The notes under the pieces were generated by a model. It was not told the DNA's origin. It saw only the letters and a program-made list of their open reading frames with translations, and searched no databases. A stretch of 32,887 bases of DNA from Deltaproteobacteria bacterium (lineage in GTDB: Bacteria > Desulfobacterota > GWC2-55-46), in contig JACREV010000004.1 in NCBI GenBank assembly GCA_016218095.1, positions 1 through 32,887 of the forward strand, read 5' to 3'. The number at the start of each line of letters is the position of its first letter. The stretch's first letter is position 1. Shown here piece by piece: positions 10,737 to 31,725 of the stretch. The translations under genes and the position numbers were made by a program.

Positions 10737-11222
10737 CTATACGGCTTTGACGCCCCACCAATTCGTGGTTTCGGTCTTAAACACGAAGCTCTTAATCTCC
10801 GGATCTTTGGAGTACCTTTCGACATACGATTTATTCATCTTCCATCCAGACGCCAACTTCCTATTCGGAAATAGTTCGAGCAGATGGTCCATTGACAAAA
10901 TATAGCCTCTAATAATGTTTCCTGCATCTACGACTATGGCGAAATAAGGGACCACGCCGAAAGCCTTACATGCGGCCTCAGCTTTGGTGAAGTTATCGTT
11001 CGGAATGGTGATGTATTCTTCTTCAGCGCCTTCGCTTCGACTTCGACTTTTTACCGAGATGCCCATCACTTCATTTGTATTGGGATTCCGAGCAATTATA
11101 TCGATTCCGGTATGGTCAACAAAAGCACACTCGAAGCCATATTTCGAGAGCCAATAGAGAATCATGGCTTCTCCAAATTCACCAGCTATTCTCGAATGCC
11201 GCGTGCTCTTATTTATTTTCAT
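10737..11222 (-). CDS. PD-(D/E)xK (Hjc/YraN-like) endonuclease-fold protein, orphan
   Basis: GEFGEAMILYWLSKYGF...DHTGIDIIA...GISVKSR fits the G..E..L..G / D-I-I-A / x-V-K restriction-endonuclease-like core. ATG start. AT-richer codon usage. Hairpin TAGGGTGCG/CGCACCCTA overlaps the stop codon. Confidence 0.6.
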   Translation of the reverse strand: MKINKSTRHSRIAGEFGEAMILYWLSKYGFECAFVDHTGIDIIARNPNTNEVMGISVKSRSRSEGAEEEYITIPNDNFTKAEAACKAFGVVPYFAIVVDAGNIIRGYILSMDHLLELFPNRKLASGWKMNKSYVERYSKDPEIKSFVFKTETTNWWGVKAV

Positions 11223-17222: not shown

Positions 17223-17227
17223 ATACG

Positions 17228-18469: not shown

Positions 18470-18611
18470 CTGAAATTGTCAACATTATTCAGGAGATAAA
18501 TTGTTTAAAACCCTTGACAAACGCCCGCACTGATAGTACAAATTATTAATAGGTAGTAAAGTATAAAAAATATAACTCCCTGGCCTCAAGGCCCCTCCAC
18601 GGTGCGCACCT

Positions 18612-19235
18612 GTGCGGAAGCCCCTGAAAGATAAAGCCTGTCTCCTCTTTTTCGCGTTCTTCTCTGCGGTAACGCTCGCAGGTTGCGGCGGCATGGCCGA
18701 GGACCTCGACACCCTCATAAACGCGGACGTCACGAAAAAGGTCGACGAGAAAGCGAACCTCGACGACTACTACGAGAAGTTCTACAAAGAGGTCGCACGA
18801 AGGTCGCACATCAAGCCCGGCACCTCCGATATAAAGGCCCTCGACTCGCTCCCCAAGGACCCATCGGGCAACGTCAACTGGACCGCGGCAGTGGTAAACG
18901 GCTATATAAACCCCAGGGGCTCTCTCGACCCGGGCGTCCCGGAGGACCAGCCGCTTAACTTGAACATTTTCATAGAGGCCAAGGTCCCTCTCATGGCGAA
19001 TGTCCTCTTCCCGCACTCGATACACACCTACTGGCTGAGTTGCAACAACTGCCACCCGAAGATATTCATACCCGAGGCGGGCGCGAACCCGATCTCCATG
19101 GACGAAATATTCAAGGGCCAGTGGTGCGGCAGGTGCCACGGCAAGGTCGCCTTCACCTTCTGGCCGAGGGAGAACTGCGTCAGGTGCCACATTGTATTGA
19201 AGGGGCAGTCCCTCGAGAGGGAGACCTTCAAGTAG
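18612..19235 (+). CDS. Lipoprotein with C-terminal triheme cytochrome c7-type domain
   Basis: Lipobox TLAGC. Three CXXCH motifs (CNNCH, CGRCH, CVRCH) within ~60 aa, preceded by FPHSIH as in c7/c3-type modules. GTG start. Confidence 0.75.
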   Translation: MRKPLKDKACLLFFAFFSAVTLAGCGGMAEDLDTLINADVTKKVDEKANLDDYYEKFYKEVARRSHIKPGTSDIKALDSLPKDPSGNVNWTAAVVNGYINPRGSLDPGVPEDQPLNLNIFIEAKVPLMANVLFPHSIHTYWLSCNNCHPKIFIPEAGANPISMDEIFKGQWCGRCHGKVAFTFWPRENCVRCHIVLKGQSLERETFK

Positions 19236-19434
19236 GGGCATTCCTGGCCGGTGCCCTTCGGAAACTATTGAGCAAGGATCAGGCAAAATCATCTTGATAT
19301 GAACTTTGCCGGTCCGGCAAGGACTCCTTGACTTTGACGGATTCAGCATAGTATCATTTTAAGGTTGGTAAGGCCCGGGAAGATTCCGGAAGACGCATAA
19401 ACAATAATACTACACAACAAGGAACGAGTCCGAC

Positions 19435-20472
19435 ATGAAGAAGATATTCAAGGTTCTCGTCACAATCGCCCTTCCCATTCTGATATACGGTTGCGCCGCG
19501 CCGCCGTTGCCGGACCTCTTATGGCCCGAACCCCCGGACGAGCCCCGGATAAAATATATACGGGACTTTCGCGGCGGAGCTGACTTCAAAAAAGGCTCGG
19601 CGGCGGTCGAAATTCTCCTCGGCGGCGAGGGCGGCGGCTCCCTTAAAAAGCCGATGGGCGTCCATACCGACATAAAGGGCAAGATTTATGTGACCGACAC
19701 CGCGAACGCCGACGTCTACATCTTCGACACCGTAAACATGACCGGCACGAGCCTCGCGGCGATGGGCGCCAAGCTCTTCTACAAGCCCATAGGCGTCGCC
19801 ACGGACGTAAACGGCAGGATATACGTCTCCGACTCCCAGACCGACACTGTGACGGTCGTCGACCAGACCGGCAAGATCGTCGGGAGCCTCGCCCCGGACC
19901 AGCCCTTCAAACAGCCGAGCGGCATCGCCTCGGATTTCGAGCGCAAGCGGATATATGTAGCCGACACGCACACGCACAACATCAAGGTATTCGATACCGA
20001 GACATTGAAGCACATAAACACTATCGGCAAGAGGGGCAAGGAGGAGGGCGAGTTCAACTTCCCGTCCTTTCTCACCGTCGACCCTAATGGCAACCTCTAC
20101 GTAGTCGACACCATGAACGGCAGGGTCCAGATATTCGATTCAGAGGGCAAGTTCATACGGGCCTTCGGCCAGTTCGGGGACGCGCCCGGGATGTTCGCTA
20201 GACCCAAGGGCATAGGCGTTGACAGCGAGGGGCATATATACGTCGTGGACGCGGCCTTCAATAACATCCAGATCTTCAACGAAGAGGGGCAGATACTCCT
20301 CGCGTTCGCCTCCTACGGGAGCGACAGGGGGCAGATGATCCTGCCCGCCGGCCTCTCGGTCGATAAGGACGACTATATATATGTAGTAGACTCCTGGAAC
20401 AGGCGGGTAGAGAAGTTCGAATACCTCGGGGACAAGGCGAAGGCGAGGACGAGCGTGAGCCCCAAGAAGTAA
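19435..20472 (+). CDS. Six-bladed NHL-repeat beta-propeller lipoprotein
   Basis: Lipobox LIYGC. Six repeats of the form P.G(I/V)..D..G.IYV.D..N..(I/V).(I/V)F(D/N). Confidence 0.85.
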   Translation: MKKIFKVLVTIALPILIYGCAAPPLPDLLWPEPPDEPRIKYIRDFRGGADFKKGSAAVEILLGGEGGGSLKKPMGVHTDIKGKIYVTDTANADVYIFDTVNMTGTSLAAMGAKLFYKPIGVATDVNGRIYVSDSQTDTVTVVDQTGKIVGSLAPDQPFKQPSGIASDFERKRIYVADTHTHNIKVFDTETLKHINTIGKRGKEEGEFNFPSFLTVDPNGNLYVVDTMNGRVQIFDSEGKFIRAFGQFGDAPGMFARPKGIGVDSEGHIYVVDAAFNNIQIFNEEGQILLAFASYGSDRGQMILPAGLSVDKDDYIYVVDSWNRRVEKFEYLGDKAKARTSVSPKK

Positions 20473-20486
20473 GAGACCATTCCAGG

Positions 20487-20517
20487 GCCCGGCAGGCGCG
20501 AGCCTGCCGGGCTTTTT
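20487..20517 (+). terminator. Rho-independent terminator after the NHL gene
   Basis: 10-bp stem GCCCGGCAGG / CCTGCCGGGC, 6-nt loop, then TTTTT. Confidence 0.8.
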
Positions 20518-20526
20518 ATTTAGATT

Positions 20527-20735
20527 TTGCGGGTTCAGGCTTGTAACCTGAACCCATTAATTCGTAACCCGAACAGAGCCTGTACTGGCTATCCGAATTT
20601 TTCGCCAAAAGCCCTTTTGCGCGCTCCGCGCGCTTTTGGCGATGGCGCCGAGCGCAAGCGTCTAATCCACCCCGGCGCGCTCGCCTCTCCCGCCCTTAGG
20701 CGCTCTCCGCCATGCGCCTGTGTATTTGTAAAGAC
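20527..20735 (+). repeat. Interspersed element, copy 4 (internal ~65-nt deletion relative to copy 3)
   Basis: Same head hairpin, core TTTTGCGCGCTCCGCGCGCTTTTGGCGATGGCGCCGAGCGC and tail CTTAGGCGCTCTCCGCCATGCGCCTGTGTATTTGTAAA. Confidence 0.8.
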
Positions 20736-20781
20736 AGAACAAATCCTCTTTTTGTTTTTCAAAAACTCGCTCTTTTAACTT

Positions 20782-20862
20782 CCCCTCCCTTGATGGGAGG
20801 GGACTGACGGGAGGGTGAAAAAAATACCCCTCACCCCGGCCCTCTCCCACAAGGGGAGAGGG
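20782..20862. repeat. CCCCTCCC-type hairpin repeats
   Basis: CCCCTCCC/GGGAGGGG (20782-20802) and CCCTCTCCC/GGGAGAGGG (20840-20862). Confidence 0.6.
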
Positions 20863-20884
20863 AGAACTTCTGGCGGGTTTCTCT

Positions 20885-20911
20885 GGCGGGTTCAAGTTTG
20901 AAACCTGAACC
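20885..20911 (+). repeat. Solo head hairpin of the interspersed element
   Basis: GGCGGGTTCAAGTTTGAAACCTGAACC is a variant of the GGGTTCAGG..CCTGAACCC head, with no core or tail after it. Confidence 0.55.
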
Positions 20912-21122
20912 TGCAAAGGACATAATATGAGCGATGATGCCCGGCATACGATCTGGATTTCATTAATAAAGGCCCCGCTCCTTGTGCGCGAAAGGGCCCT
21001 TAAAGGGCTGGCCCGAAAGGTAACCGGGGGCATAAAAAGAGATATTTTTAGCAATAAAAACAATAAGTTATCATGCATTAGCCCTTCCATAAAAAATTAT
21101 TAAAAACCTGTTAATTTTCCTC

Positions 21123-21150
21123 TTGACAGCCGTTAATATAAGAGTATAAT
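21123..21150 (+). promoter_or_regulatory. Strong sigma70-type promoter for the first tetraheme cytochrome gene
   Basis: TTGACA (21123-21128), 16-nt spacer, TATAAT (21145-21150). An A/T-rich UP-like tract lies immediately upstream. Confidence 0.65.
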
Positions 21151-21213
21151 GGTTTTAACTTAATGAAGGCTGACAAGGTTCACGGCGGGCCTTGACAGAC
21201 CTCCAGGCGATGG

Positions 21214-21264
21214 ATGCCTTGGTACTACCGATGAGTGGTGGTGGTAACTGAAGGCATTTTTTTT
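21214..21264 (+). promoter_or_regulatory. Terminator-like hairpin plus T8 inside the 5' leader (attenuator or riboswitch expression-platform candidate)
   Basis: ATGCCTT (21214-21220) pairs with AAGGCAT (21251-21257), with an inner TACC/GGTA helix. T8 run at 21257-21264. An alternative perfect 12-bp hairpin GGCATTTTTTTT/AAAAAAAATGCC lies at 21253-21280. Confidence 0.5.
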
Positions 21265-21341
21265 ACCCAAAAAAAATGCCAGGGACGGAACGGAACTAAG
21301 GTATCTAAAAACCAACTTCTAAGGACTGAAAGGAGTCACAT

Positions 21342-22232
21342 ATGAAAAGGTTTCTCGCAGTCGCAGTAGCGGTCGCCTCGATAGGCTTCCTCACCGCCGG
21401 AACAGCTTCAGCCGTTGACACCTACGCCGCTGGCGATGCCGCATCAGGCATAGCCTCGGCGAGGCATAACCTCGGCGGTTTCTCGATGCACATAGGCGCC
21501 GTGGGCACAACCGAAATCTGCGTATTCTGTCACACGCCTCACCACACCAACACCGCCAACAACCTTAGGCCGATGTGGAACAGGGGCACCTCTGCTCCGA
21601 CCTCCTTCACCGCCTACGGCACGACGATCGCGGGCACCACGATCGCCAACACCGACATCGGCTCGACCTCGCTTGCTTGCTTGAGCTGCCATGACGGCGT
21701 AACCACCTTCGACAACCTCGTCAACGCCCCTGGTAAGTCCGGCATAACCACTGGCGGTACGGACCGTGGCTACACCTTCTATGACTTCGGCACAGTCGTC
21801 TCCGACTTCATGACCTCCAGCAGGTTGAACATCGGCCTCAACCTCTCCAACGACCACCCGGTCTCCGTGACCTACAACGCCGGGACGGCCGCGGGCTTGA
21901 GGGCCACCAACACGACCATCAGCGCGATCGACCTTACCTCTGAGCTCAACACCTCTGCCACGACCTACGACAACGGCAACCTCACCAAGAACCTCTGGGC
22001 GGTAAAGGGCTTCGTCTCCGACACGGCGACGATCGCTGACCTCCTCAGGTCCGGCAAGGTTGAGTGCTCCAGCTGCCACGATCCGCACTTCAACAACAAG
22101 TCTTGGCAGGAAATCGACTCCACCTACTCGAACGTGACCGCGGACCAGGAAGCTGAGTCCAACGGCCTGTTCATCAGAAGGGTCGGCGGCAACACCGGTT
22201 CTGGCGTATGCAGAACCTGCCACGAGAAGTAA
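21342..22232 (+). CDS. Secreted tetraheme c-type cytochrome, paralog 1
   Basis: Signal peptide (..TAGTASA/VD). Four CXXCH motifs: CVFCH, CLSCH, CSSCH, CRTCH. RHNLGG...EICVFCHTPHH resembles the doubled-CXXCH family. AAAGGAG Shine-Dalgarno. Confidence 0.88.
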   Translation: MKRFLAVAVAVASIGFLTAGTASAVDTYAAGDAASGIASARHNLGGFSMHIGAVGTTEICVFCHTPHHTNTANNLRPMWNRGTSAPTSFTAYGTTIAGTTIANTDIGSTSLACLSCHDGVTTFDNLVNAPGKSGITTGGTDRGYTFYDFGTVVSDFMTSSRLNIGLNLSNDHPVSVTYNAGTAAGLRATNTTISAIDLTSELNTSATTYDNGNLTKNLWAVKGFVSDTATIADLLRSGKVECSSCHDPHFNNKSWQEIDSTYSNVTADQEAESNGLFIRRVGGNTGSGVCRTCHEK

Positions 22233-22268
22233 AAACCGCTCGGTCGCAAGACCGAATCGGATAAAAAA

Positions 22269-22301
22269 GAAGGGCCGGGAAACCGGCCCTTCTTTTTTTT
22301 T
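22269..22301 (+). terminator. Strong Rho-independent terminator after paralog 1
   Basis: GAAGGGCCGG-GAAA-CCGGCCCTTC followed by T9. The A-run upstream makes it potentially bidirectional. Confidence 0.85.
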
Positions 22302-22344
22302 GCCTCCATACCCTCCCCCCTCTCCTGAAGGCGCAATCGCCTCC

Positions 22345-22372
22345 TCGACAACCGCATTTCCTGATGTATACT
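22345..22372 (+). promoter_or_regulatory. Sigma70-type promoter candidate for paralog 2
   Basis: TCGACA (22345-22350), 16-nt spacer, TATACT (22367-22372). Confidence 0.45.
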
Positions 22373-22471
22373 CATCTATGTTGGGATAGAAGCCTCAAAA
22401 CCGGGAAAAGGAGGTAAAAAAAGCCGATCCGACCGATAGGCTGACGGTATTCAACCTGAGAGGAGCAACTC

Positions 22472-23362
22472 ATGAGATATTTGAGAGCTGTTACCCTTTT
22501 GGCCGTCTCAGTCTGCATCCTTTCCGCAGCCGCCGCGGAGGCCCTTGACACCTACCTGGCCGGAGACGCCGCGACCGGCATAGCCGGTTCCAGGCACAAC
22601 CTCGGCGGCCTCTCCATGCACATAAGCTCGCAGGCGACCACCGAGATCTGCGTATTCTGCCACACGCCCCACCACACGAACACTACGAACAACATGAAGC
22701 CTATGTGGAACAGGTCCGCGCTCTCCATCACGAGCTTCACCGCCTACGGCACGACCGCCTCTTTCTCGACCATTTCCAACACCGACATAGGCTCCGTCTC
22801 GCTCGCGTGCCTCTCCTGCCACGACGGCGTCACCACCTTCGACAACATCGTGAACGCGCCCGGCAGGGGCGGGGTCACCCAGGGGGGGTCCGACCGAGGT
22901 TACGAGTTCCTCTTAACGGGGATCCTCGTCTCCGACTTCATGACCGCGTCCCGGCTCGTCGTAGGCGTAGACCTCTCGAACGACCACCCGGTCTCCGTCC
23001 TCTATCTCGCGGGCACTGCCGCGAGCCTCCGCCCGACGAACACGACCATCAGCCAGATAGACATCACGGCCGGCCTGAACGTGACCGCGATTTCATTCGA
23101 CAACGGCAATATGAGAAAGAACCTCTGGGCCATAAAGGGGTTCATCTCCGACCAGGCAACTATCGCGGACCTGCTCCGGAACGGCAGGGTCGAGTGCTCC
23201 TCGTGCCACGACCCGCACTTCAACAACAAGTCATGGCAGGAGGTCGACTCGACCTACACTACCGTCGCCGCATATCAGGAGGTGGAATCGAACGGCCTTT
23301 TCCTCCGCAGAGTAGGCGGCAACACGGGTAGCGGGCTTTGCAGGACGTGCCATAACAAATAG
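22472..23362 (+). CDS. Secreted tetraheme c-type cytochrome, paralog 2
   Basis: Same length (296 aa) as paralog 1 and collinear with it. Roughly two-thirds or more of residues are identical by eye. Same four CXXCH positions. GAGGAG Shine-Dalgarno. Confidence 0.88.
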   Translation: MRYLRAVTLLAVSVCILSAAAAEALDTYLAGDAATGIAGSRHNLGGLSMHISSQATTEICVFCHTPHHTNTTNNMKPMWNRSALSITSFTAYGTTASFSTISNTDIGSVSLACLSCHDGVTTFDNIVNAPGRGGVTQGGSDRGYEFLLTGILVSDFMTASRLVVGVDLSNDHPVSVLYLAGTAASLRPTNTTISQIDITAGLNVTAISFDNGNMRKNLWAIKGFISDQATIADLLRNGRVECSSCHDPHFNNKSWQEVDSTYTTVAAYQEVESNGLFLRRVGGNTGSGLCRTCHNK

Positions 23363-23418
23363 GCGGTAATGGAAAGTGGCGCGCCAAACCAAAAAATCGG
23401 CATTTGAGATCTCAGTCC

Positions 23419-23447
23419 AGGGGGCCGGTCCGGCCCCCTTTTTTTTT
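23419..23447 (+). terminator. Strong Rho-independent terminator after paralog 2
   Basis: AGGGGGCCGG/CCGGCCCCCT palindrome followed by T9. Confidence 0.85.
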
Positions 23448-23655
23448 GCCTTCCCCCTTTGCCGCCCCTTTCAAGCCAAAGCGGCTTTCCCCGTAAGTTA
23501 AAATTTTTTAATAATCGCATAATCGTCATTTTAAGCTGAAAATATAGAATGTACCCCGGGGGACGCTTAACCTCCCCTGAAGATAAGATTTTAGATTTAT
23601 TATTTATTTCCGTTATATTATAATAGCCAATCAATAAACCCCGGAGGTCCAAAAA

Positions 23656-24651
23656 ATGTCAAGCTTCTCAAAAAGGCTCTTCGCCGCGGCCGTCTTTGTC
23701 GCGCTCCTCGCCCCGGCGTCGTTCGCGGCCAATTCGCCGACGGACGTGATCGCAAAGGTCAACGGAAAGACCATAACGAGGGAGAACCTGGATACCGCCA
23801 CGAACAACCTCCTGCCCCTCATGACATATCACCAGTCGGTCTCCGACGAACGGATGAGGGAGATACAAAAGCAGGCGCTCGAGAAGCTCATAAACAACGA
23901 GCTCATGTACAAGGCCGCCGTCGACTCCAAGCAGGCCGACGTAAATCCGAAGGAAATAGAGGCGAGGGTAAAGGACCTCAAGAAGAAGCTCCCGAAGGGC
24001 GAGACGATCGAGAAGGTCTTGAAGAGAAGCGGGATGACGCTCGCCGACCTCAAGGAGGACTTCAGGAAGGACATGGTCGTCGAGAGGCTGTCAAAGAAAA
24101 CGAACGAAGAGCTCAAGAAACTCTCGGAGAAGACCGTCGACGAGGCGTTCATGAAGGACTACTACCAGAAGAACCTCGCGAAGTTCAAGGAGCCGGAGCA
24201 GATACACTTAAGGTCCATACTCGTCAAGGCCGACCCCTCCGGCGGCCAGAAGGTCTGGAACGAGTCGCTCAAAAAGGCCAAGGAGATAGCCGATAAGGCG
24301 AAGGCCGGAGAGGACTTCGCGAAGCTCGCCGAGAAGCACTCGGAGGACCCGTTCGCTAAAAAGGGCGGCGACATGGGCTGGTCCCACAAGGGCGAGCTCA
24401 TACCTGAGATCGACGACGCCGCCGCGAAGCTCAAGGTCGGCGAGATCGGCGGCCCGGTCATGTCCATCTACGGCTACCACGTTATAAGGCTCGAGGGCAG
24501 CAAGCCCTCAGTGCAGAAGAAGTTCGAGGAGCTCAACAAGGAGAAGCTCGAGAAGGAGCTCGAGGCCAAGGAGTACAAGAAGCTCTGGAACGGATGGCTC
24601 AAAAGCCTGCGCGACTCATCCAAGGTCGAGTACGTCACAATACTAAAATGA
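23656..24651 (+). CDS. Periplasmic PpiC (parvulin)-type peptidyl-prolyl isomerase, SurA/PrsA-like
   Basis: Signal peptide. SurA-N-like helical region. Rotamase core FAKLAEKHSEDP.AKKGGDMGW........PE.....KLKVGEI.GPV.S.YGYH(V/I)I. Confidence 0.85.
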   Translation: MSSFSKRLFAAAVFVALLAPASFAANSPTDVIAKVNGKTITRENLDTATNNLLPLMTYHQSVSDERMREIQKQALEKLINNELMYKAAVDSKQADVNPKEIEARVKDLKKKLPKGETIEKVLKRSGMTLADLKEDFRKDMVVERLSKKTNEELKKLSEKTVDEAFMKDYYQKNLAKFKEPEQIHLRSILVKADPSGGQKVWNESLKKAKEIADKAKAGEDFAKLAEKHSEDPFAKKGGDMGWSHKGELIPEIDDAAAKLKVGEIGGPVMSIYGYHVIRLEGSKPSVQKKFEELNKEKLEKELEAKEYKKLWNGWLKSLRDSSKVEYVTILK

Positions 24652-24701: not shown

Positions 24702-25151
24702 ATGGACAAGAAACTTTTCGTAACGATAGCCGCCGCTTTTGCCGCGCTCCTTTCCGTCTCCGGATGCACCGGAGAGAAGAAGGGGGCTCCCCCGGAAAAG
24801 ACCGCCGCGGAGGCCGCGCCGGCCGTACAGGCCGGCTCCGGCGACCCGGCCTCCGGCAAGGACATCTATTTCAGGTACTGCCACTTCTGCCACGGGCAGA
24901 AGGGCATGGGCGACGGCCCCGTGGGCATAGCCCTCTCCCCCCACCCGGCCGACTTCGTGAACGACGAGAAGAGGATGTCGAAGACCGACGCCGAGCTCTT
25001 TAAATCCATAACAGAGGGGATACACAAGGAGGTCGGCGGAGAAGCGATGTCCATGCCGAGGTGGCAGGAGATATTGTCTGAAAAAGAGAGATGGGACGTG
25101 CTCGCGTTCATAAGACAGTTGGAGCGCGAGGGCAAGACCGCCCCGAAATAA
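24702..25151 (+). CDS. Monoheme class-I cytochrome c lipoprotein
   Basis: Lipobox VSGC. Single CHFCH motif in GKDIYFRYCHFCHG, with a distal-Met candidate in AMSMPRW. Confidence 0.85.
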   Translation: MDKKLFVTIAAAFAALLSVSGCTGEKKGAPPEKTAAEAAPAVQAGSGDPASGKDIYFRYCHFCHGQKGMGDGPVGIALSPHPADFVNDEKRMSKTDAELFKSITEGIHKEVGGEAMSMPRWQEILSEKERWDVLAFIRQLEREGKTAPK

Positions 25152-25176: not shown

Positions 25177-26163
25177 ATGAAAAAACTTCTTGCTTCAGTC
25201 GCCGTATCCCTCTGCGTCATGGCCTCTTCCGCCTTCGGGGCCGCAAGCGACTACGACCCGGTGACAGGCGAGCCCAAGTGCATGGACTGCCATACGCCCG
25301 ACAGGAGGTACTCTACGGATTACACCAGGGACGAGACCTGTGTAGAGTGCCACGGCCCGGGCTTGAGCGACAAATACGTCGATATAAACAACAGGTTCAG
25401 GGAAAGCGCGGAGCTGGGCGAGATAGGCAAATACACCGAGACCGCCGCGGCTTCCGGCAAGGGCGCGGTGAAGGAGGCCGCCCCCAAGGGGATGATACTC
25501 ATCCCGGCCGGGGAGTTCACCATGGGGTCTAACGAATGGTGGCCCAAGAGCCAGCCCGAGCATTCGAGGATGGTCGAGGCCTTTTATATCGACAAGTTTG
25601 AAGTGACGAATGCGCGCTACAAGGCCTTCGTCGACGCCACGGGCTACCCGGCCCCGGACCACTGGAAGGACGGCAGTATCCCCGAAGGCAAGAAGGACCA
25701 CCCTGTCGTATACGTGACATGGAAGGACGCGGACAACTTCTGCAGATGGGAAGGCAAGCGCCTGCCCGATGAGGCCGAATGGGAGAAGGCCGCCAGAGGC
25801 ACCGACAAGAGGACATTCCCCTGGGGCGACAAGTTCGACAAGGAAAAGGGCAACACACCCCAGTACGGGCATGAGGACACGCTCCCGGTCGGGTCCTTCG
25901 AGAGCGGCAAGAGCCCCTACGGAGTCTACGACATGGCCGGCAACGCCTTCGAGTGGACCGACAGCTGGTTCAAGCCCTACCCCGGAAGCACCCACCCGGA
26001 CGAAAACTACGGGGAGAAGTACAAGGTGCTCAAGGGCGGCTCCTGGTACGACTGCACCACATACAAGTGCGGGATAAGCGCCCCGACATACAACAGGATA
26101 TTCTTCCACCCGACCACGAAGAACAACAACTTCGGGTTCAGGTGCGCGAAGGACAAAAAATAA
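25177..26163 (+). CDS. Diheme c-type module fused to a formylglycine-generating-enzyme (FGE/SUMF1) domain
   Basis: Signal peptide. CMDCH and CVECH in the first ~70 aa. FGE motifs MILIPAGEFTMGS, HPVVYVTWKDADNFCRWEGKRLPDEAEWEKAARG, YDMAGNAFEWT, GGSWY and FGFRCA. C-x4-C pair CTTYKC present. Confidence 0.85.
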   Translation: MKKLLASVAVSLCVMASSAFGAASDYDPVTGEPKCMDCHTPDRRYSTDYTRDETCVECHGPGLSDKYVDINNRFRESAELGEIGKYTETAAASGKGAVKEAAPKGMILIPAGEFTMGSNEWWPKSQPEHSRMVEAFYIDKFEVTNARYKAFVDATGYPAPDHWKDGSIPEGKKDHPVVYVTWKDADNFCRWEGKRLPDEAEWEKAARGTDKRTFPWGDKFDKEKGNTPQYGHEDTLPVGSFESGKSPYGVYDMAGNAFEWTDSWFKPYPGSTHPDENYGEKYKVLKGGSWYDCTTYKCGISAPTYNRIFFHPTTKNNNFGFRCAKDKK

Positions 26164-26177
26164 AAGGCCGCGATGAG

Positions 26178-27746
26178 ATGAAAGGAGAAGGCCCGAACAA
26201 ATACCTCGTCTTCACCGCCTTCGCGTGCGGCTCGATCATAATGGTCGTCGAGCTCATCGGCTCAAGGGTAATAGGCCCGCCTTTCGGCGTGAGCCTCTTC
26301 GTCTGGACCTCTCTCATCACCGTAACGCTCGTCTCCCTCGCCCTCGGCTACTGGCTCGGCGGCAGGCTCTCAGATAGGTTCGGGAGCCACGGCGCCCTCT
26401 TCACGGTAATATTCCTCGCAGGGCTCACCCTCATCGCGGTCCCGGTCATAAAAGGGACGGTCATAGGCCTCTCGCTCTCCCTGGGGCTCCGCGTAGGCTC
26501 GCTCGTAAGCTCGACGGCCCTTTTCGGCCCGCCGCTCTTTTTACTCGGCATGGTAGCCCCGTATACCGTAAAACTCTACATGGGCGACGGGAAGGACGGG
26601 ATCGGGAGGACCGTCGGGTGGCTATACGCGGTATCCACCGCCGGGAGCTTCATCGGGACGGTATTGACCGGCTTCATCCTCATACCCAACCTCGGCGTCA
26701 ACAACATCATCTACCTGTCCTCGGCCTCCCTCATCCTCATCGCGGCGGGCTACTGGCTCTTTTTCAGAAGGAAAGCGTACGCCGTCGCCGTCGCGCTCCT
26801 GCCGTTCGGCCTGCTGCTCTTTCCGAAAGACCTCCCGTCGGTCGTGAGGCCGGACGGCACGAACGTCTCCCTCATCGTGAACGAGGACAGCGCCTACGGG
26901 CAGATCAAGGTGGTGGATTACTCCTACGGCGGCCAGTTGATAAGAGAGTTCCTTCTCGAGAACATGATACAGGGCGGGGTCGACATGAAGACCGGCCTTT
27001 CAGTCTCCAAGTACACCTATTACATAGAAAAACTCGCGCGCGCTTACAAGCCGGACGCAAGGCGCGCCCTCGTGATCGGGCTCGGCAGCGGCATAGTCCC
27101 CAACAGGTTCGAGAGGCTCTACGGCATAAAGACCGACGTCGTCGAGATAAACCCGGCTGTCGTGGACGCCGCATCTAGGTACTTCTCCTACGACAGATCG
27201 CTCCACCCCACGTTCATCGAGGACGGCAGGTACTTCCTCAAGGGGTCTACTGAGCCTTACGAGGTAATAGTCCTCGACGCGTTCTCGGGAGACATCCCGC
27301 CGAGCCATCTCATAAGCCTCGAGGCGTTCGAGCTCGTGAGGGGGAGGCTTTCCAGAGACGGGGTCCTTCTCATAAACTTCATAAGTTCGAACGTGCCGGA
27401 GGACCTCGCGGCCCCGGCGTCGCTCCTGCGGACCCTGAAGGAGGTCTTCCCCCATGTCGACGTGTACACATCCGTTGAGTATTCCGACCCGTCGCCGCGG
27501 GTCGTGAACATGCTCTTCGCGGCGACTATGGAGAGGCGCGCAATCGAGGACTCCTACGACGCAGAGGTGCATCCCGGGTACGAGGAGGACGTAAGGACGC
27601 TCCTTGCGAGGAGGATAGATCTTCCTCCCGGGGAGGCGCTTTTTACCGACGATTTCAATCCCGTGGATTTCCAGGACTACAAGACAAGGGAGCGGTTCCG
27701 TTACAGCATAATCTCTGCTTCGGACCGCGCGATCATCCTGGACTGA
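26178..27746 (+). CDS. Fused polytopic membrane domain / spermidine-synthase-fold (class I methyltransferase-like) protein
   Basis: The N-terminal ~200 aa holds multiple TM helices. The C-terminal part has ALVIGLGSGIVP, VVEINPAVVDAA and YEVIVLDAFSGD..PSHL. Start set at ATG 26178, 14 nt after the upstream stop. Confidence 0.8.
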   Translation: MKGEGPNKYLVFTAFACGSIIMVVELIGSRVIGPPFGVSLFVWTSLITVTLVSLALGYWLGGRLSDRFGSHGALFTVIFLAGLTLIAVPVIKGTVIGLSLSLGLRVGSLVSSTALFGPPLFLLGMVAPYTVKLYMGDGKDGIGRTVGWLYAVSTAGSFIGTVLTGFILIPNLGVNNIIYLSSASLILIAAGYWLFFRRKAYAVAVALLPFGLLLFPKDLPSVVRPDGTNVSLIVNEDSAYGQIKVVDYSYGGQLIREFLLENMIQGGVDMKTGLSVSKYTYYIEKLARAYKPDARRALVIGLGSGIVPNRFERLYGIKTDVVEINPAVVDAASRYFSYDRSLHPTFIEDGRYFLKGSTEPYEVIVLDAFSGDIPPSHLISLEAFELVRGRLSRDGVLLINFISSNVPEDLAAPASLLRTLKEVFPHVDVYTSVEYSDPSPRVVNMLFAATMERRAIEDSYDAEVHPGYEEDVRTLLARRIDLPPGEALFTDDFNPVDFQDYKTRERFRYSIISASDRAIILD

Positions 27747-27833: not shown

Positions 27834-28622
27834 ATGCGGTCCGTAAAAAGTTCGGGTTATCTGGCCATTACAGCGCTCGCAATCGCGCTTTTCGGATGCA
27901 AACCGGCTCCTGAGGACATGGTAAAGGTCCCCGGAGGCGAGTTCACGATGGGCAGTAACGAAGTCGACAGGGAGGCGAAGGCCATGCAGTACGGCGACAG
28001 GCGCCCCTGGTACGCGAACGAGAGGCCCGAGAGGAAGATGAAGCTCGGCACGTTCCACATCGACAGGACAGAGGTGACGAACAGGCAGTACAAGGAGTTC
28101 GTCGAAGGCGCAAAACACGCCGCGCCCCCGCACTGGGCTCTCGGCTCGTACCCCGAGAGCCTCGCCGACCATCCCGTGGTGTTCGTGACCTGGAAGGACG
28201 CCGATGAGTTCTGCAAGTGGAAGGGCAAGAGGCTCCCCTCGGAAGCGGAGTGGGAGAAGGCCGCCAGGGGCGCGGACGGGAGGATATTCCCATGGGGCAA
28301 CGACTTCGACATAAAGAAGGTCAACACCATAGGCGAGTACGGCGGCACGGTCCCCGTAGGCACGCTCAAGGACGGGGTGAGCCCCTACGGCGCCTACGAC
28401 ATGTCCGGCAACGCCCAGGAGTGGACGTCCGACTGGTACAAGCCTTATCCCGATAACGAGTTCAAGGACCCGGACTACGGGGAGAAGTTCAAGGTGGTGC
28501 GCGGCGGCGGATGGGGAGGCATGGGCCACTACTCGCTCCAGGTATACGTAAGGGCGCCTTTCAGGAACGCCGCGCCTCCGGAAGGCCGTTACGACGACGT
28601 GGGTTTCAGGTGCGTCTGGTAA
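27834..28622 (+). CDS. FGE/SUMF1-domain lipoprotein lacking the catalytic Cys pair
   Basis: Lipobox LFGC. FGE motifs VPGGEFTMGS, HPVVFVTWKDADEFCKWKGKRLPSEAEWEKAARG, YDMSGNAQEWT and VGFRCV. The region equivalent to C-x4-C reads GGMGHYSLQVY. Confidence 0.82.
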   Translation: MRSVKSSGYLAITALAIALFGCKPAPEDMVKVPGGEFTMGSNEVDREAKAMQYGDRRPWYANERPERKMKLGTFHIDRTEVTNRQYKEFVEGAKHAAPPHWALGSYPESLADHPVVFVTWKDADEFCKWKGKRLPSEAEWEKAARGADGRIFPWGNDFDIKKVNTIGEYGGTVPVGTLKDGVSPYGAYDMSGNAQEWTSDWYKPYPDNEFKDPDYGEKFKVVRGGGWGGMGHYSLQVYVRAPFRNAAPPEGRYDDVGFRCVW

Positions 28623-28879: not shown

Positions 28880-30901
28880 ATGCTCCGCAACAAACTGGCG
28901 CTCGTAGCCGCAGTAGCCGCAGTAGCCGCGGGCCTCTTTGCGCCTCAAAGGGGCTATGCCGTCGAAGAGGACCCGTACATCTACAAGTCCCTCGTGGGAC
29001 GGGTCTATTTCGAGTTCGAGGAGGCCGCGACCGAGCAGAACGGCATATCGTCGGATTCGGCCCGCTTCCAGCAGACGTACAGCCTGGACTTCAAGGGAAA
29101 CTTCATGTCCAGGAGGCTCCTCATCTACGACGCGGGGGTCGCATTAACCAACAACGACTATTCATCTAATTCAAGCGACGTCGCTACCCGTACAATCGAT
29201 TATTACCTGCGTACGACCATACTCCCCAAGTCCGGCATACCGCTCACCCTCTACGGGCAGAGGACCGAGGACCAGACGAGTTCATCGGACAGGACCAAGA
29301 CGACATACGGGCTCAACTGGTTCTTGAAGCTCCGCACCCTGCCGCAGACCTCGATCTACGCCGAAAGGGTCCTGTCGGAGTCCGACAGCGTCGATACCGA
29401 GACAGGCAATTACAAGGTGGTCCTTAAAAAGGAGATAGGCCCGACCGAGAACGACGCGGTCATGTCGTTCGCCACGAGCGACTCCTCCGACGGCACGAGC
29501 TCGACGGTAACGACGTTTAACGCGAATAACCTCACGAGGATCTCCAAGAGCACCCAGATCTACGCCGGCGCGACCCTCAGCCGGTCCGCCTCTGACGAGT
29601 CGGATTCGAACACCGATACGAGCCTCGAAGGCTTGAGCCTCCTGCTGAACTCCAAGCCGAGCCAGGACTTCAACCAGAACCACAGGTATGTATACTACAG
29701 GAACAAGACCGACGGGGACGAGCAGATAGGGACAAACTACTCAGGCGACATGGGTTACAGGCTGACGCAGAGGACGGACGCGAACCTCGCCGTGAGCCTC
29801 GGCACCTCCGAGAGCAACTCTTCCACGTCCACGTCCGAGACCGAGTCGCTTGGCGTAAGCGGCGGCATGAACTTCAGGGTCACCGACAACCTGATGGCCT
29901 CGGAATCGGTCTCATATTCGGACTTCAAGTCCAACTCAAACGCCTCGGCGGCTTCCACCGCGGACACGACCACGGATACGACCGATACCACCGACACGAC
30001 AGACGGCACCGATACCGCTACCGACACCTCCGACACCTCCGCCACGACAGGCGACAGGACGACGCTCAGGGCGACCTCCAGGCTCAGCTACTCGAAGATA
30101 TTCTCCCGGGCCGTGCTCGGCGCGGGATGGTCGATCGGCTACATAGAGGACAAGGCCGAGGGGTTCAGGACCGGACAGGGCCTGGAACACAGCGTCAACG
30201 CCTCGCTCGGCAACATAGACGTAAACCGGCACGTGGGTTTCGGCGTCGGCTTCTCGCAATCCGACACATACACGCTCGCGGGAGAGGACATATTCAGCCA
30301 CTCGAAGAACTACAACGCCAACGCCTTCAACAAGACATTGAAGCAGTACGTCCAAATGAACGCAATGTACAACAAGTCGGTCTACGACTCCTATATCGAC
30401 GTGACCGGCACCAGGAGCGAGACATACAGGCTCGACGCCACTTCCGCCTACTTCAAAAACTTCACCCTCCAGGGTTTCGCGGAGCACTCGAGCACCTTCA
30501 GCGGGGTGAGCGGATTCGGCCAGACCGACACAGTCGGGGCCTCCGTCGGGCATAACAGGCCGTTGTTCAAGGGCTCTCTGAACCTCTCGCTCTACTACGC
30601 CCTCATCGACTCCGAATACGAGGGCGGCTCGGACACTATAAGAGACCTGCAGTTCCTCACGCAGTACACTAAAAAATTCTATAACAACCTCAACTGGCAG
30701 GCTACCTTCCGCGTCACCCAGAAGAAGAGCTCGGAATCCGACAAGGACGAGACATCGTTCACCAACTCCCTCACTTATCCCCTGCGGGCCTGGCTCTTAG
30801 GGCTCGAGCAGATGAACTCGTACACGGTCGAGGACACTACCGAGACGAAGGAGGCCTCGATACTCTTCAGGGCCACGAGGGTATTCGTGAGGATATGGTA
30901 A
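28880..30901 (+). CDS. Large predicted outer-membrane beta-barrel protein with an internal Thr/Asp-rich tract
   Basis: Signal peptide. 673 aa, no Cys, S/T/N/Y/D-rich with many alternating amphipathic segments. Ends ...RVFVRIW (C-terminal aromatic residue). Confidence 0.65.
   Translation: MLRNKLALVAAVAAVAAGLFAPQRGYAVEEDPYIYKSLVGRVYFEFEEAATEQNGISSDSARFQQTYSLDFKGNFMSRRLLIYDAGVALTNNDYSSNSSDVATRTIDYYLRTTILPKSGIPLTLYGQRTEDQTSSSDRTKTTYGLNWFLKLRTLPQTSIYAERVLSESDSVDTETGNYKVVLKKEIGPTENDAVMSFATSDSSDGTSSTVTTFNANNLTRISKSTQIYAGATLSRSASDESDSNTDTSLEGLSLLLNSKPSQDFNQNHRYVYYRNKTDGDEQIGTNYSGDMGYRLTQRTDANLAVSLGTSESNSSTSTSETESLGVSGGMNFRVTDNLMASESVSYSDFKSNSNASAASTADTTTDTTDTTDTTDGTDTATDTSDTSATTGDRTTLRATSRLSYSKIFSRAVLGAGWSIGYIEDKAEGFRTGQGLEHSVNASLGNIDVNRHVGFGVGFSQSDTYTLAGEDIFSHSKNYNANAFNKTLKQYVQMNAMYNKSVYDSYIDVTGTRSETYRLDATSAYFKNFTLQGFAEHSSTFSGVSGFGQTDTVGASVGHNRPLFKGSLNLSLYYALIDSEYEGGSDTIRDLQFLTQYTKKFYNNLNWQATFRVTQKKSSESDKDETSFTNSLTYPLRAWLLGLEQMNSYTVEDTTETKEASILFRATRVFVRIW
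29957..30056 (+). repeat. Imperfect ACN-GAY hexanucleotide repeat encoding TADTTTDTTDTTDTTDGTDTATDTSDTSATTGD
   Basis: Direct reading of the sequence. It is a low-complexity insert inside the barrel ORF. Confidence 0.8.
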
Positions 30902-31725
30902 TGACCTCGGGCGCCTCCGGGAACATCCCGACCGATACCTCACCCCTCCCCTCGATCGCCCTTGCGGCGGTCGTCATCGCGCTCGCCTTTATCTCGTTCA
31001 ACAGGAACTCGGTCTGGAAGAGCCCGGAGACCCTCTGGGCGGATGTCGTGGCCAAATCCCCGTCAAAGGCGCGCCCCCATTACAACTACGCGACGGTGCT
31101 TGCCGGAAACGGAGACCTCGACCGCGCGCTCGAGGAGAACTTGAAGGCCATCGAGATATACCCGTATTACGGGAAGGCGTACTTCAACATAGGGGCGATC
31201 TTCCACACATGGGGGAGGGTCGACGAGGCGATAGAGAAGTACGAGATCGCCGTGGCATTGAAACCCGACATAGTAGAAGCGCACAACAACCTCGGGTACG
31301 CCTATTACACAAAGGGCGGATACCAGGAGGCCTTGAGGGAATACAGGACCGCCCTCGGCATGAAACCCTCTCACGTGAAGGCTCGCATAAACCTCGGGTA
31401 TCTTTACAGGGACACAGGCATGCTGGACGAGGCGATCGATGAGTACAGGACGGCGTTAAAGTACATGCCCGATTACGCCGACGCCTACAGGCTCATCGGC
31501 GAGGCCTATCTGCTCAAGAAGGACCCGGCCTCCGCGATAGAGAGCCTGAAAAGGGCGATAGAGCTCGCCCCTTACTCCGCGGAGGCCCACAACGGGCTCG
31601 GCAAGGCGTTCGAGATCTCCGGAGAGCCAAGGCTCGCCTGGGCTGAATATGAAAAAGCCCTCAGCCTGAACCCCGGCCTTCTCGATGCGGGAGAGGGCCT
31701 CCGTCGTCTTGACGGCGCACTTTAG
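30895..31725 (+). CDS. Single-pass membrane-anchored TPR-repeat protein
   Basis: One N-terminal TM (LPSIALAAVVIALAFISF), then about six TPR units (..A..NLGYAY...G.Y.EA...Y..AL...P). Its start overlaps the barrel gene's end (ATG 30895 or in-frame ATG 30901). Confidence 0.85.
   Translation: MVMTSGASGNIPTDTSPLPSIALAAVVIALAFISFNRNSVWKSPETLWADVVAKSPSKARPHYNYATVLAGNGDLDRALEENLKAIEIYPYYGKAYFNIGAIFHTWGRVDEAIEKYEIAVALKPDIVEAHNNLGYAYYTKGGYQEALREYRTALGMKPSHVKARINLGYLYRDTGMLDEAIDEYRTALKYMPDYADAYRLIGEAYLLKKDPASAIESLKRAIELAPYSAEAHNGLGKAFEISGEPRLAWAEYEKALSLNPGLLDAGEGLRRLDGAL

What the first reader, a model, noticed from the sequence alone, without database searches (positions are those of the whole stretch)
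21342..23362. Tandem, equal-length tetraheme cytochrome paralogs, each a monocistronic unit with its own promoter and strong terminator
Seen: two 296-aa ORFs, collinear without gaps by eye. The four CXXCH motifs (CVFCH, CLSCH, CSSCH, CRTCH) sit at identical positions. Both share the blocks RHNLGG, EICVFCHTPHHTN, SLACLSCHDGVTTFDN, LSNDHPVSV, VECSSCHDPHFNNKSWQE and GLF(I/L)RRVGGNTGSG. Most substitutions fall in Thr/Ser/Ala-rich stretches between the heme sites. Each protein has six additional His residues, enough for bis-His ligation of all four hemes. Both have Sec signal peptides and no lipobox, and carry many N-x-S/T sequons. Each gene ends in a GC hairpin plus T9 (22269-22301 and 23419-23447).

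Inference: this insulation and promoter strength are typical of abundant structural proteins such as pilins or filament subunits. Alternating or alternative subunits of one polymer are possible.
Basis: partly seen in the sequence, partly recalled or inferred. Interest (0 to 1): 0.75.

Follow-up and report, generated by a model that had tools for sequence, protein, structure and literature searches.

The report
Tandem OmcE-like nanowire cytochrome genes
Two neighbouring genes encode relatives of OmcE, the four-heme protein that Geobacter polymerises into conductive "nanowires". The first gene is driven by a perfect promoter followed by a previously undescribed structured RNA leader that contains its own terminator.

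Summary
There are two gapless 296-aa tetraheme ORFs, 71% identical, each with its own promoter-like site and GC hairpin plus T9.

They are not an orphan family. The best solved-structure matches are the filament-forming OmcE of G. sulfurreducens (7TFS, profile E 1.6e-20) and its D. soudanensis homolog (9YUQ). All four CXXCH motifs, four further invariant His and the C-terminal CXXCH-x-K end are colinear with OmcE.

The genes sit in a cluster conserved across uncultured groundwater "Deltaproteobacteria": NHL beta-propeller lipoprotein, SurA-like PPIase, small cytochromes, a predicted 32-strand outer-membrane barrel and a TPR protein.

Gene A is the conserved copy. Gene B is an older, faster-evolving paralog that is missing from two sister genomes, so an obligate alternating A/B polymer is unlikely. 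N-x-S/T sequons are not enriched.

This module recurs in front of about 50 family members and is absent from Rfam. Gene B lacks it.

Filament formation and the leader's trigger remain inferred.

The parts
21123..21150 (+). Perfect sigma-70 consensus promoter of gene A (TTGACA-16-TATAAT)
   Evidence: Scores 12/12. It is invariant in orthologous loci. The same perfect promoter precedes 36 of 52 leader copies, and 44 of 52 score at least 11/12, always at a fixed distance.
21159..21294 (+). Conserved structured leader RNA of gene A. P1 hairpin is at 21164-21205 with apical loop 21182-21186. The conserved linker GGCGATGGAT is at 21206-21215. P2 hairpin is at 21216-21255, followed by U8 at 21257-21264, forming an intrinsic terminator. 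An optional A-tract hairpin extends to 21281.
   Evidence: Covariance model R1 scores it 106 bits. Covariation: 93.8% of cells paired against 80.4% in shuffles, and 136 double-change cells against 43, 0/500 shuffles as high. P2 is followed by 7-9 U in 49 of 53 copies. There is no Rfam match.
21342..22232 (+). Gene A: 296-aa OmcE-family tetraheme c-type cytochrome. It is the conserved copy and the putative major nanowire subunit.
   Evidence: Orthologs are 91-95% identical; dN/dS against the L005 ortholog is 0.06.
22263..22301 (+). Terminator of gene A: 16-bp hairpin including a GC core, followed by a T run. It is flanked by an A-tract, so it could act in both directions.
   Evidence: Folds to -41.1 kcal/mol, z = -7.1. 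It is conserved in L001, L002, L003 and L005.
22345..22372 (+). Promoter-like site of gene B (TCGACA-16-TATACT, 10/12)
   Evidence: Found. It is conserved in L001 and L005, and survives as a remnant in L002, where gene B is deleted.
22472..23362 (+). Gene B: 296-aa paralog, 71% identical to A. It has no leader RNA, belongs to a separate fast-evolving clade and is dispensable in sister genomes.
23419..23447 (+). Terminator of gene B (9-bp stem with 8 GC pairs, then T9)
   Evidence: -20.9 kcal/mol.
19435..20472 (+). NHL-repeat beta-propeller lipoprotein (lipobox ...IYGC) with its own terminator at 20484-20515. It is syntenic with the cytochrome gene.
   Evidence: Pfam NHL E 1.7e-35. Terminator. 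Found next to the cytochrome gene in 21 sources.
23656..24651 (+). SurA-like PpiC-type peptidyl-prolyl isomerase with a signal peptide
   Evidence: Syntenic in 20 sources.
24702..25151 (+). Monoheme class-I cytochrome c lipoprotein
   Evidence: Syntenic in 16 sources.
25177..26163 (+). Secreted protein with two N-terminal CXXCH motifs fused to an FGE-sulfatase-like domain
   Evidence: Syntenic in 17 sources.
25953..27746 (+). Fused MFS/spermidine-synthase-like membrane protein. The true start is probably downstream of 25953.
   Evidence: NCBIfam NF037959, E 6.9e-70. Syntenic in 9 sources.
27834..28622 (+). Second FGE-sulfatase-like protein, a lipoprotein
28880..30901 (+). 673-aa outer-membrane protein predicted as a 32-strand beta-barrel. 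It has a signal peptide and a C-terminal ...VFVRIW.
   Evidence: AF2 pLDDT 85.6 with 32 long strands. Best Foldseek match is MtrB 6r2q_B, E 8.7e-11, but TM is only 0.34. No Pfam match. Syntenic in 14 sources.
30895..31725 (+). TPR-repeat protein at the end of the conserved cluster

Best explanation
SHOWN
- Genes A and B are paralogous members of the OmcE family of tetraheme c-type cytochromes.
- They carry the full OmcE ligand set: 4 CXXCH motifs plus 4 further invariant His, and the same C-terminal CXXCH-x-K end.
- They lie in a gene cluster conserved across a lineage of uncultured groundwater 'Deltaproteobacteria'/Thermodesulfobacteriota. The cluster order is beta-propeller lipoprotein, cytochrome(s), PPIase, small cytochromes, FGE-like proteins, giant outer-membrane barrel, TPR protein.
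- Gene A is a self-contained cassette: perfect sigma-70 promoter, then a covarying leader RNA ending in an intrinsic terminator, then the CDS, then a strong terminator. The same cassette precedes about 50 family members.
- Gene B has its own weaker promoter, no leader and its own terminator. It evolves faster than A and has been lost from two sister genomes.

INFERRED
- After Sec export and heme attachment, protein A is folded in the periplasm with help from the PPIase. It is then passed to or through the 32-strand barrel with the propeller lipoprotein.
- It polymerises head-to-tail as OmcE does, with one His of each subunit completing the bis-His ligation of a heme in the neighbouring subunit. 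This yields an insulated heme wire for extracellular electron transfer.
- Transcription from the maximal promoter stops at the leader terminator unless an unknown signal prevents it. The signal could be a metabolite, a protein or an RNA. This would give a high-gain on/off control of an expensive product.
- B is an alternative or accessory subunit. Its conserved N- and C-terminal blocks and different surface loops would let it use the same machinery under separate regulation.
For: Homology to filament subunits.
- Phmmer against OmcE 7tfs_A gives E 8.6e-16 and against 9yuq_N gives E 2.8e-12.
- The family profile gives E 1.6e-20 and 2.6e-16. The N-terminal domain, the heme-3 motif and the C-terminal end are all colinear.
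- 9YUQ is the D. soudanensis OmcE bundle.
- Eight His are invariant in 64 homologs.

Family size. 2192 homologs at E<=1e-5. 3992 representatives at E<=1e-3.

Cluster. The barrel model has pLDDT 85.6 and 32 strands. Synteny holds in 14-21 sources, down to 42-50% cytochrome identity, and in L065.

Published criteria. Petersen et al. treat an OmcE homolog as a likely nanowire when a large beta-barrel and a beta-propeller lipoprotein are nearby.

A/B asymmetry.
- A orthologs are 94% identical where B orthologs are 73%.
- dN/dS is 0.21 for A against B, and 0.03-0.29 among orthologs.
- B is absent in L002 and L003, with a promoter remnant left behind.
- B forms a separate clade.

Cassette. Promoter conservation is shown. 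Downstream terminators occur after 46 of 72 family genes.
Against: - There is no direct evidence of polymerisation. The AF2 monomer without hemes was unusable (pLDDT 49), and no multimer or heme-aware prediction was available.
- The proteins are about 65-75 aa longer than OmcE, with two insertions (roughly residues 178-238 and 250-289).
- They carry a subfamily-specific ninth His, H68. This His could in principle satisfy the interfacial heme within the same molecule.
- The cluster lacks the 'two multiheme cytochromes and two propeller lipoproteins' of the minimal Desulfuromonadia OmcE cluster (one search compared).
- These genomes carry five or more paralog loci, so not every copy need form a filament.
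- No conserved antiterminator pairing was found for the leader, and no transcript data were available.
Confidence: 0.6

Rival explanations
1. A and B are OmcE-family cytochromes that do not polymerise. They would act as abundant monomeric periplasmic or cell-surface tetraheme electron carriers, perhaps docking on the barrel as part of a porin-cytochrome conduit.
For: - Tetraheme proteins similar to OmcE are widespread, and only a subset is thought to form wires.
- This subfamily has a near-invariant extra His, H68, and long insertions relative to OmcE.
- The barrel's best structural match is the porin MtrB.
- Many paralogs per genome lack accessory genes.
Against: - The only significant structural relatives are filament subunits.
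- The locus meets the barrel-plus-propeller criterion.
- No large periplasmic multiheme partner of MtrA or OmaB type is present in the cluster.
- The MtrB match has TM of only 0.34.
- The perfect promoter and strong terminators suit a bulk structural product.
Confidence: 0.22
2. B is a minor subunit of the A filament, acting as tip, initiator or 'stopper'. This is the kind of in-cluster partner that Petersen et al. looked for in OmcE operons and did not find.
For: - B sits directly after A in four genomes: the window, L001, L005 and L065.
- It keeps all family-invariant residues and the N- and C-terminal blocks.
- It has a weaker promoter and no leader.
- It is under purifying selection, with dN/dS 0.05-0.12 among B orthologs.
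- The open question is stated.
Against: - B is deleted in L002 and L003, and many loci with the full cluster have a single cytochrome gene.
- B has the same His complement as A. It has no extra ligand specific to B, whereas a stopper was predicted to have one more.
Confidence: 0.1
3. A and B are obligate alternating subunits of one heteropolymer.
For: The two proteins have equal length, align without gaps and share conserved terminal blocks.
Against: - Sister genomes keep A and the machinery without B.
- Promoter strength and leader control differ sharply between the two genes.
- Their evolutionary rates are unequal.
Confidence: 0.04
4. The 'leader' is an independent small RNA gene (promoter, about 105 nt RNA, terminator), and the cytochrome is transcribed from a separate weak promoter.
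For: The leader has a perfect promoter and a canonical terminator of its own. A related copy lies upstream of unrelated genes, PqqD plus radical SAM, in L062 and L064.
Against: - It is always in the sense orientation, 45-100 nt upstream of a cytochrome start codon (52 of 55 hits).
- It occurs once per operon-like array (L012).
- No second promoter-like site lies between 21265 and 21341.
Confidence: 0.15

Closest known systems
OmcE of Geobacter sulfurreducens (GSU0618; filament structure PDB 7TFS)
   Same: It is a tetraheme protein. Four CXXCH motifs and four distal His are colinear with A and B, including the blocks CVFCHTPH, PxWNR, CxSCHDG and LSNDHP. It shares the C-terminal CXXCH-x-K end and a Sec signal peptide.
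   Different: OmcE is 232 aa against 296 aa here. A and B carry insertions between the NDHP block and heme 3 and between hemes 3 and 4, plus the extra His H68. Overall identity is low. Polymerisation is shown for OmcE but not here.
Desulfuromonas soudanensis OmcE homolog DSOUD_2954 (PDB 9YUQ; bioRxiv 10.1101/2025.10.22.684050)
   Same: It belongs to the same family (E 2.8e-12 single sequence, 2.6e-16 profile). Its gene cluster has a large beta-barrel and a beta-propeller lipoprotein.
   Different: The minimal cluster there has two multiheme cytochromes and two propeller lipoproteins. This locus instead has one propeller, a PPIase, a monoheme cytochrome, a diheme-FGE fusion, an MFS/spermidine-synthase fusion and a TPR protein.
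omcS-omcT tandem paralogs and the osc (OmcS-companion) operon of G. sulfurreducens
   Same: The filament subunit gene is followed by a close paralog. The companion genes are proposed to act in folding, secretion and morphology.
   Different: OmcS is a hexaheme protein with no detectable sequence similarity to OmcE. Homology of the accessory proteins here to the Osc proteins was not tested.
Five-heme 'OmcE-like' proteins of uncultured bacteria (Petersen et al. 2025)
   Same: They belong to the same superfamily and occur in the same genomes. Paralogs of 325-333 aa with 5 CXXCH motifs occur in the related MAGs, up to five in tandem in L012.
   Different: A and B have four hemes.
GEMM-Ib (cGAMP) riboswitches upstream of Geobacter extracellular cytochrome genes (PMC6456294)
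   Same: Both are 5' leaders with a terminator-type expression platform that gate extracellular cytochrome genes such as omcST, pgcA and omcAHG.
   Different: There is no sequence or structure match to GEMM-I or any other Rfam family. The architecture differs: one long hairpin, an 8-10 nt conserved linker, then the terminator. The ligand or effector is unknown.

Membership tests
OmcE-family tetraheme nanowire cytochrome | Significant sequence similarity to structurally characterised OmcE subunits | tested here: met
   7tfs_A gives E 8.6e-16 and 9yuq_N gives E 2.8e-12. The profile gives E 1.6e-20 and 2.6e-16.
OmcE-family tetraheme nanowire cytochrome | Four CXXCH motifs plus four further conserved His, enough for bis-His ligation of four hemes, colinear with OmcE | tested here: met
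   CXXCH motifs lie at 60, 113, 242 and 290. H42, H67, H172 and H249 are invariant and align to OmcE's KH, TPH, NDH and CHxxH.
OmcE-family tetraheme nanowire cytochrome | Secreted protein with a Sec signal peptide | tested here: inconclusive
   By inspection only: hydrophobic N-termini with an AxA-type site and no lipobox. No signal-peptide predictor was available.
OmcE-family tetraheme nanowire cytochrome | Nearby large outer-membrane beta-barrel and beta-propeller lipoprotein (the filter used by Petersen et al. for nanowire-type homologs) | tested here: met
   NHL lipoprotein at 19435-20472. 32-strand barrel at 28880-30901. Both are syntenic in many loci. The criterion is quoted.
OmcE-family tetraheme nanowire cytochrome | Minimal Desulfuromonadia cluster content: two multiheme cytochromes and two propeller lipoproteins | tested here: not met
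   Only one propeller protein is present. The other cytochromes are monoheme and diheme. This describes one clade's cluster rather than the protein family.
OmcE-family tetraheme nanowire cytochrome | Head-to-tail polymer with inter-subunit His-heme ligation and a stacked/T-shaped heme chain | not testable with these tools
   The AF2 monomer without hemes reached pLDDT 49. No multimer or heme-aware predictor and no experiment were available.
Riboswitch / transcription-attenuating leader | Conserved secondary structure supported by covariation | tested here: met
   Across 54 distinct sequences, 93.8% of cells pair against 80.4% in shuffles. Double-change cells number 136 against 43 (0/500 shuffles as high). 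Slid controls give 29-52% paired.
Riboswitch / transcription-attenuating leader | Location in the 5' UTR with an intrinsic terminator as expression platform | tested here: met
   The promoter -10 lies 23-28 nt before the P1 apex. P2 has median dG -17.8 and is followed by 7-9 U in 49 of 53 copies. The start codon lies 45-100 nt downstream.
Riboswitch / transcription-attenuating leader | Mutually exclusive antiterminator structure | tested here: inconclusive
   Only weak candidate pairings were seen by eye in the alignment. No systematic search for alternative folds was run.
Riboswitch / transcription-attenuating leader | Direct ligand binding | not testable with these tools
   This needs in-line probing or ITC.
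GEMM-I (c-di-GMP / cGAMP) riboswitch | Match to the Rfam covariance model | tested here: not met
   No GEMM hit even at E<=10 over 20480-23660. Nothing was found at gathering threshold in the window or at E<=1 in 11 other loci.
Porin-cytochrome conduit (MtrAB/Pcc type) | Barrel paired with a large periplasmic multiheme cytochrome and an outer-surface multiheme lipoprotein | tested here: not met
   The barrel's best fold match is MtrB, but TM is 0.34. There is no deca- or octaheme partner in the cluster.

The most novel reading that the evidence does not exclude
The leader at 21159-21294 is a new class of ligand- or factor-responsive attenuator (riboswitch-like) dedicated to nanowire-type cytochromes. 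It would pair a maximal promoter with a default-off terminator, while the leaderless paralog B supplies a separately regulated alternative or minor (tip/stopper) subunit of the same filament. That would give a first handle on how cytochrome-wire production and composition are controlled outside Geobacter.
Probability: 0.25. Interest if true: 0.8.

Novelty: new variant of a known kind. Interest (0 to 1): 0.58.

Why it matters
Cytochrome nanowires are structurally solved only for a few cultured organisms. How they are secreted, started, stopped and regulated is openly described as unknown.

This locus offers several things:
- an enlarged OmcE-type subunit;
- an in-cluster paralog that could be tested as an alternative or minor subunit;
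- a compact, conserved accessory set, including a 32-strand barrel large enough to be considered as a filament port;
- a promoter-leader-terminator cassette repeated about 50 times, which makes regulation directly testable in vitro.

It also shows that a whole lineage of uncultured groundwater bacteria has expanded this family to five or more loci per genome, with 4- and 5-heme forms. That points to extracellular electron transfer as a central trait of the lineage.

Tried and rejected
- AF2 structure of protein A with a 64-sequence alignment gave pLDDT 49. This is expected without hemes, so no fold search was run on it.
- The OmcE structure paper could not be read. Which His crosses the interface was therefore not taken from the literature.
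- Rfam at gathering and permissive thresholds found nothing real for either intergenic region.
- Sequon enrichment and the glycosylation idea are not supported. No glycosyltransferases were identified among the window's main ORFs scanned against Pfam.
- Codon-bias comparison (ENC, GC3) does not separate A or B clearly from their neighbours. Only C3 is highest in A and B.
- A leader-peptide idea was dropped. The window has a 10-codon mini-ORF at 21164, but other loci lack an ATG there.
- A CsrA-site idea for the linker (GGA in a loop) was dropped because GGA is not conserved.
- The metagenome pattern scan returned only 3 loci.
- A homolog search for the barrel found only 24 lineage-specific hits, with no names and no Pfam. 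Homology to the Geobacter OmcE or OmcS cluster barrels could therefore not be tested.
- The outer stem of P1 could not be put into one gap-consistent alignment. Its covariation is reported from inspection and per-sequence folds only.
Full report
**1. Observation**

The window holds two ORFs of exactly 296 aa at 21342-22232 and 22472-23362 on the + strand. They align without gaps at 71% identity (210/296, E 3e-166).

- Both have CXXCH at residues 60, 113, 242 and 290 and ten His each.
- A perfect TTGACA-16-TATAAT lies at 21123-21150. A 10/12 site, TCGACA-16-TATACT, lies at 22345-22372.
- Gene A is followed by a 16-bp hairpin plus T-run (-41.1 kcal/mol for the 73-nt stretch, z = -7.1).
- Gene B is followed by a 9-bp stem with 8 GC pairs, then T9.
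- A/B differences fall at positions that vary across the family (entropy 1.86 against 0.74).
- The sequon count (6 and 5) equals what shuffled sequences give (P about 0.4).

**2. What the proteins are**

Pfam and NCBIfam give only generic multiheme hits: Paired_CXXCH_1 and cytochrome c7.

Against all PDB sequences, the only significant relatives are two filament subunits:
- G. sulfurreducens OmcE (7tfs_A, E 8.6e-16);
- a 218-aa 'putative multiheme cytochrome c' (9yuq_N, E 2.8e-12). This is the D. soudanensis OmcE-homolog bundle.

A 64-sequence family profile raises these to E 1.6e-20 and 2.6e-16. It aligns three colinear pieces: the N-terminal two-heme domain, the heme-3 motif ECxSCHxxH, and the C-terminal ...CxxCHxK end.

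Eight His are invariant in the family: H42, H64, H67, H117, H172, H246, H249 and H294. This is exactly the four proximal plus four distal ligands that are conserved in OmcE homologs.

H68 is near-invariant only in this subfamily. In the wider family that position is G, H, A or F.

The proteins are 65-75 aa longer than OmcE through two insertions.

The family is large. There are 2192 homologs at E<=1e-5 and 3992 50%-identity representatives at E<=1e-3. All are unnamed, and those with a named source come mostly from uncultured 'Deltaproteobacteria'/Thermodesulfobacteriota MAGs, many from groundwater.

An AF2 monomer was unusable without hemes (pLDDT 49).

**3. Surroundings**

Upstream of 19349 the first genes on the minus strand (PilZ, ParA-like, unknown 266 aa) are syntenic with the cluster. 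Further upstream are unrelated housekeeping genes.

From 19435 onward the genes are:
- an NHL beta-propeller lipoprotein;
- A and B;
- a SurA-like PPIase;
- a monoheme cytochrome c;
- a diheme-FGE-sulfatase fusion;
- a fused MFS/spermidine synthase;
- a second FGE-like lipoprotein;
- a 673-aa protein with no Pfam match;
- a TPR protein.

The 673-aa protein is predicted with pLDDT 85.6 as 32 long beta-strands. It has a signal peptide and a C-terminal aromatic residue. Its best fold match is the porin MtrB, followed by LptD, TonB-dependent receptors and pilus ushers. TM scores are low, as expected for a barrel of a different size.

The same gene order is found in 14-21 of 62 sources, down to 42-50% cytochrome identity, and again in L065.

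Petersen et al. single out likely nanowire-forming OmcE homologs by a nearby large barrel and a propeller lipoprotein. This locus meets that criterion. It does not contain the two multiheme cytochromes and two propellers of the minimal Desulfuromonadia cluster.

In Geobacter the OmcS subunit gene is likewise followed by a paralog (omcT) and by companion genes proposed for folding, secretion and morphology.

**4. A versus B**

Orthologs of A are 91-95% identical in four related loci. B orthologs are 88% and 73% identical for the same genome pairs.

| Comparison | Result |
|---|---|
| A against B | dN/dS 0.21, with dS about 1.1 |
| A orthologs | dN/dS 0.03-0.29 |
| B orthologs | dN/dS 0.05-0.12 |
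| dS, window against L001 | 0.125 for A, 0.459 for B |

In a neighbour-joining tree B, P0029 and P0027 form their own long-branched clade outside the A-type group. The duplication is therefore old.

B sits between A and the PPIase in four genomes: the window, L001, L005 and L065. It is missing in L002 and L003, where the A terminator, a remnant of the B promoter and the B-terminator region remain.

Many loci with the full cluster have one cytochrome gene. Others have two in different arrangements, and L012 has five 5-heme paralogs in a row.

B is therefore a functional but dispensable paralog. This argues against an obligate alternating heteropolymer. It leaves open 'alternative subunit' or, less likely, 'minor subunit'.

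**5.

The 190 nt between the promoter and the start codon of A are conserved even in the more distant L005. They fold better than shuffles (z = -3.7).

An HMM and then a covariance model of this region find it in 55 places in 0.89 Mb of related loci. Of these, 52 lie directly upstream of a family member, including non-syntenic paralogs of less than 50% protein identity. It occurs once per operon-like array.

In the window there is one copy, before A. There is none before B, even with filters off.

The architecture is as follows:
- A promoter that is a perfect 12/12 consensus in 36 of 52 copies and at least 11/12 in 44 of 52, at a fixed distance.
- A long hairpin P1 with a conserved apex YUCA-NGNN-GGG.
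- A conserved linker GGYGAYG(G)N.
- A hairpin P2 (median -17.8 kcal/mol) followed by 7-9 U in 49 of 53 copies, which is a canonical intrinsic terminator.
- A further 45-100 nt to the start codon.

Pair counts support P1 (inner part) and P2. Of all cells, 93.8% pair, against 80.4% in shuffles and 29-52% when partners are slid. There are 136 double-change cells against 43 in shuffles (0/500 as high). The outer P1 stem also changes sequence while staying paired, by inspection.

No Rfam family matches.

A weaker copy (35.5 bits) precedes a PqqD-like gene plus a radical-SAM/SPASM gene in two metagenome contigs. The element may therefore not be exclusive to cytochromes.

Forty-six of 72 family genes also have a strong terminator within 160 nt of the stop codon.

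The closest functional analogue is the set of GEMM-Ib cGAMP riboswitches that gate extracellular cytochrome genes in Geobacter through terminators. The structure here is unrelated.

**6. Mechanism proposed**

Shown: family membership, ligand set, cluster conservation, cassette structure, A/B asymmetry.

Inferred: A is exported, receives four hemes and is folded with the PPIase. It is delivered to the giant barrel with the propeller lipoprotein and polymerises as OmcE does, with one His completing a heme of the next subunit (mechanism as described for OmcE).

Transcription from the maximal promoter is held off by the leader terminator until an unknown signal allows read-through.

B, with conserved terminal blocks but different loops and independent regulation, would be an alternative or accessory subunit.

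Confidence is about 0.6 for the nanowire-subunit reading and above 0.9 for OmcE-family membership.

**7. Rivals**

- Monomeric carrier or porin-cytochrome component (0.22).
- B as tip or stopper (0.10). This is attractive because states that no such candidate is encoded in known OmcE operons. It is weakened by B's absence in sister genomes and by its identical His count.
- Obligate ABAB polymer (0.04).
- The leader as a free-standing sRNA (0.15, independent of the protein question).

**8. Novelty and verdict**

OmcE homologs in many phyla, tandem paralogs of wire subunits and riboswitch-gated cytochromes are all known ideas.

What is new here:
- a longer OmcE-type subfamily, massively expanded in an uncultured lineage;
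- an accessory cluster of different composition with a 32-strand barrel;
- a promoter-leader-terminator module that is not in Rfam.

The classification is new variant of a known kind. Interest is moderate to good, chiefly because the leader and the in-cluster paralog make open questions about nanowire regulation and composition testable.

Noticed in passing
window 21159-21294 (and about 50 related loci): A conserved, covarying leader RNA with an intrinsic terminator lies behind a perfect sigma-70 promoter, upstream of gene A and most family members. It is absent from Rfam 15.
   Followed up: yes
L062:3810-3913(-), L064:1876-1979(-): A weaker copy of the same leader (35.5 bits) sits upstream of an 88-aa PqqD-like protein and a 473-aa radical-SAM/SPASM protein rather than a cytochrome. 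The regulon may be broader than the cytochrome family.
   Followed up: partly
window 28880-30901: A 673-aa protein with no Pfam match is predicted (pLDDT 85.6) as a 32-strand beta-barrel, larger than MtrB or LptD. It has a Thr/Asp/Ser-rich disordered loop at residues 355-388.
   Followed up: partly
L012:9878-15018: Five tandem 5-heme paralogs (327-334 aa) are separated by 6-206 nt, with one leader before the first gene and no internal terminators. This matches the '5-heme OmcE-like' group mentioned by Petersen et al.
   Followed up: partly
window 16518-19349 (- strand): A PilZ-domain protein, a ParA/MinD-like ATPase and an unknown 266-aa protein are divergently oriented and syntenic with the cytochrome cluster in 11-19 loci. 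The PilZ domain hints at a cyclic-di-GMP input.
   Followed up: no
window 25177-26163 and 27834-28622: Two FGE-sulfatase-like proteins are conserved in the cluster. The first has an N-terminal diheme (CMDCH, CVECH) extension, which is an unusual fusion. A possible role in modifying the cytochrome is untested.
   Followed up: no
window 20529-20554 and 20886-20911; 20782-20862: Two 26-nt palindromic direct repeats (88% identical) flank a 330-nt stretch that contains a long GC-rich hairpin. The NHL-to-cytochrome spacer is not conserved in L001. This looks like a small inserted repeat element.
   Followed up: no
window genes A and B compared with L001: Synonymous divergence is 3.7-fold lower for A than for the adjacent B in the same genome pair (dS 0.125 against 0.459). 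This is compatible with strong codon or mRNA constraints on A, or with recent exchange of A.
   Followed up: partly
window 8980-9591 and 10737-11222 (- strand): A PEP-CTERM protein and an unknown 160-aa ORF have much lower GC3 (0.50-0.56 against about 0.8) than the rest of the window.
   Followed up: no
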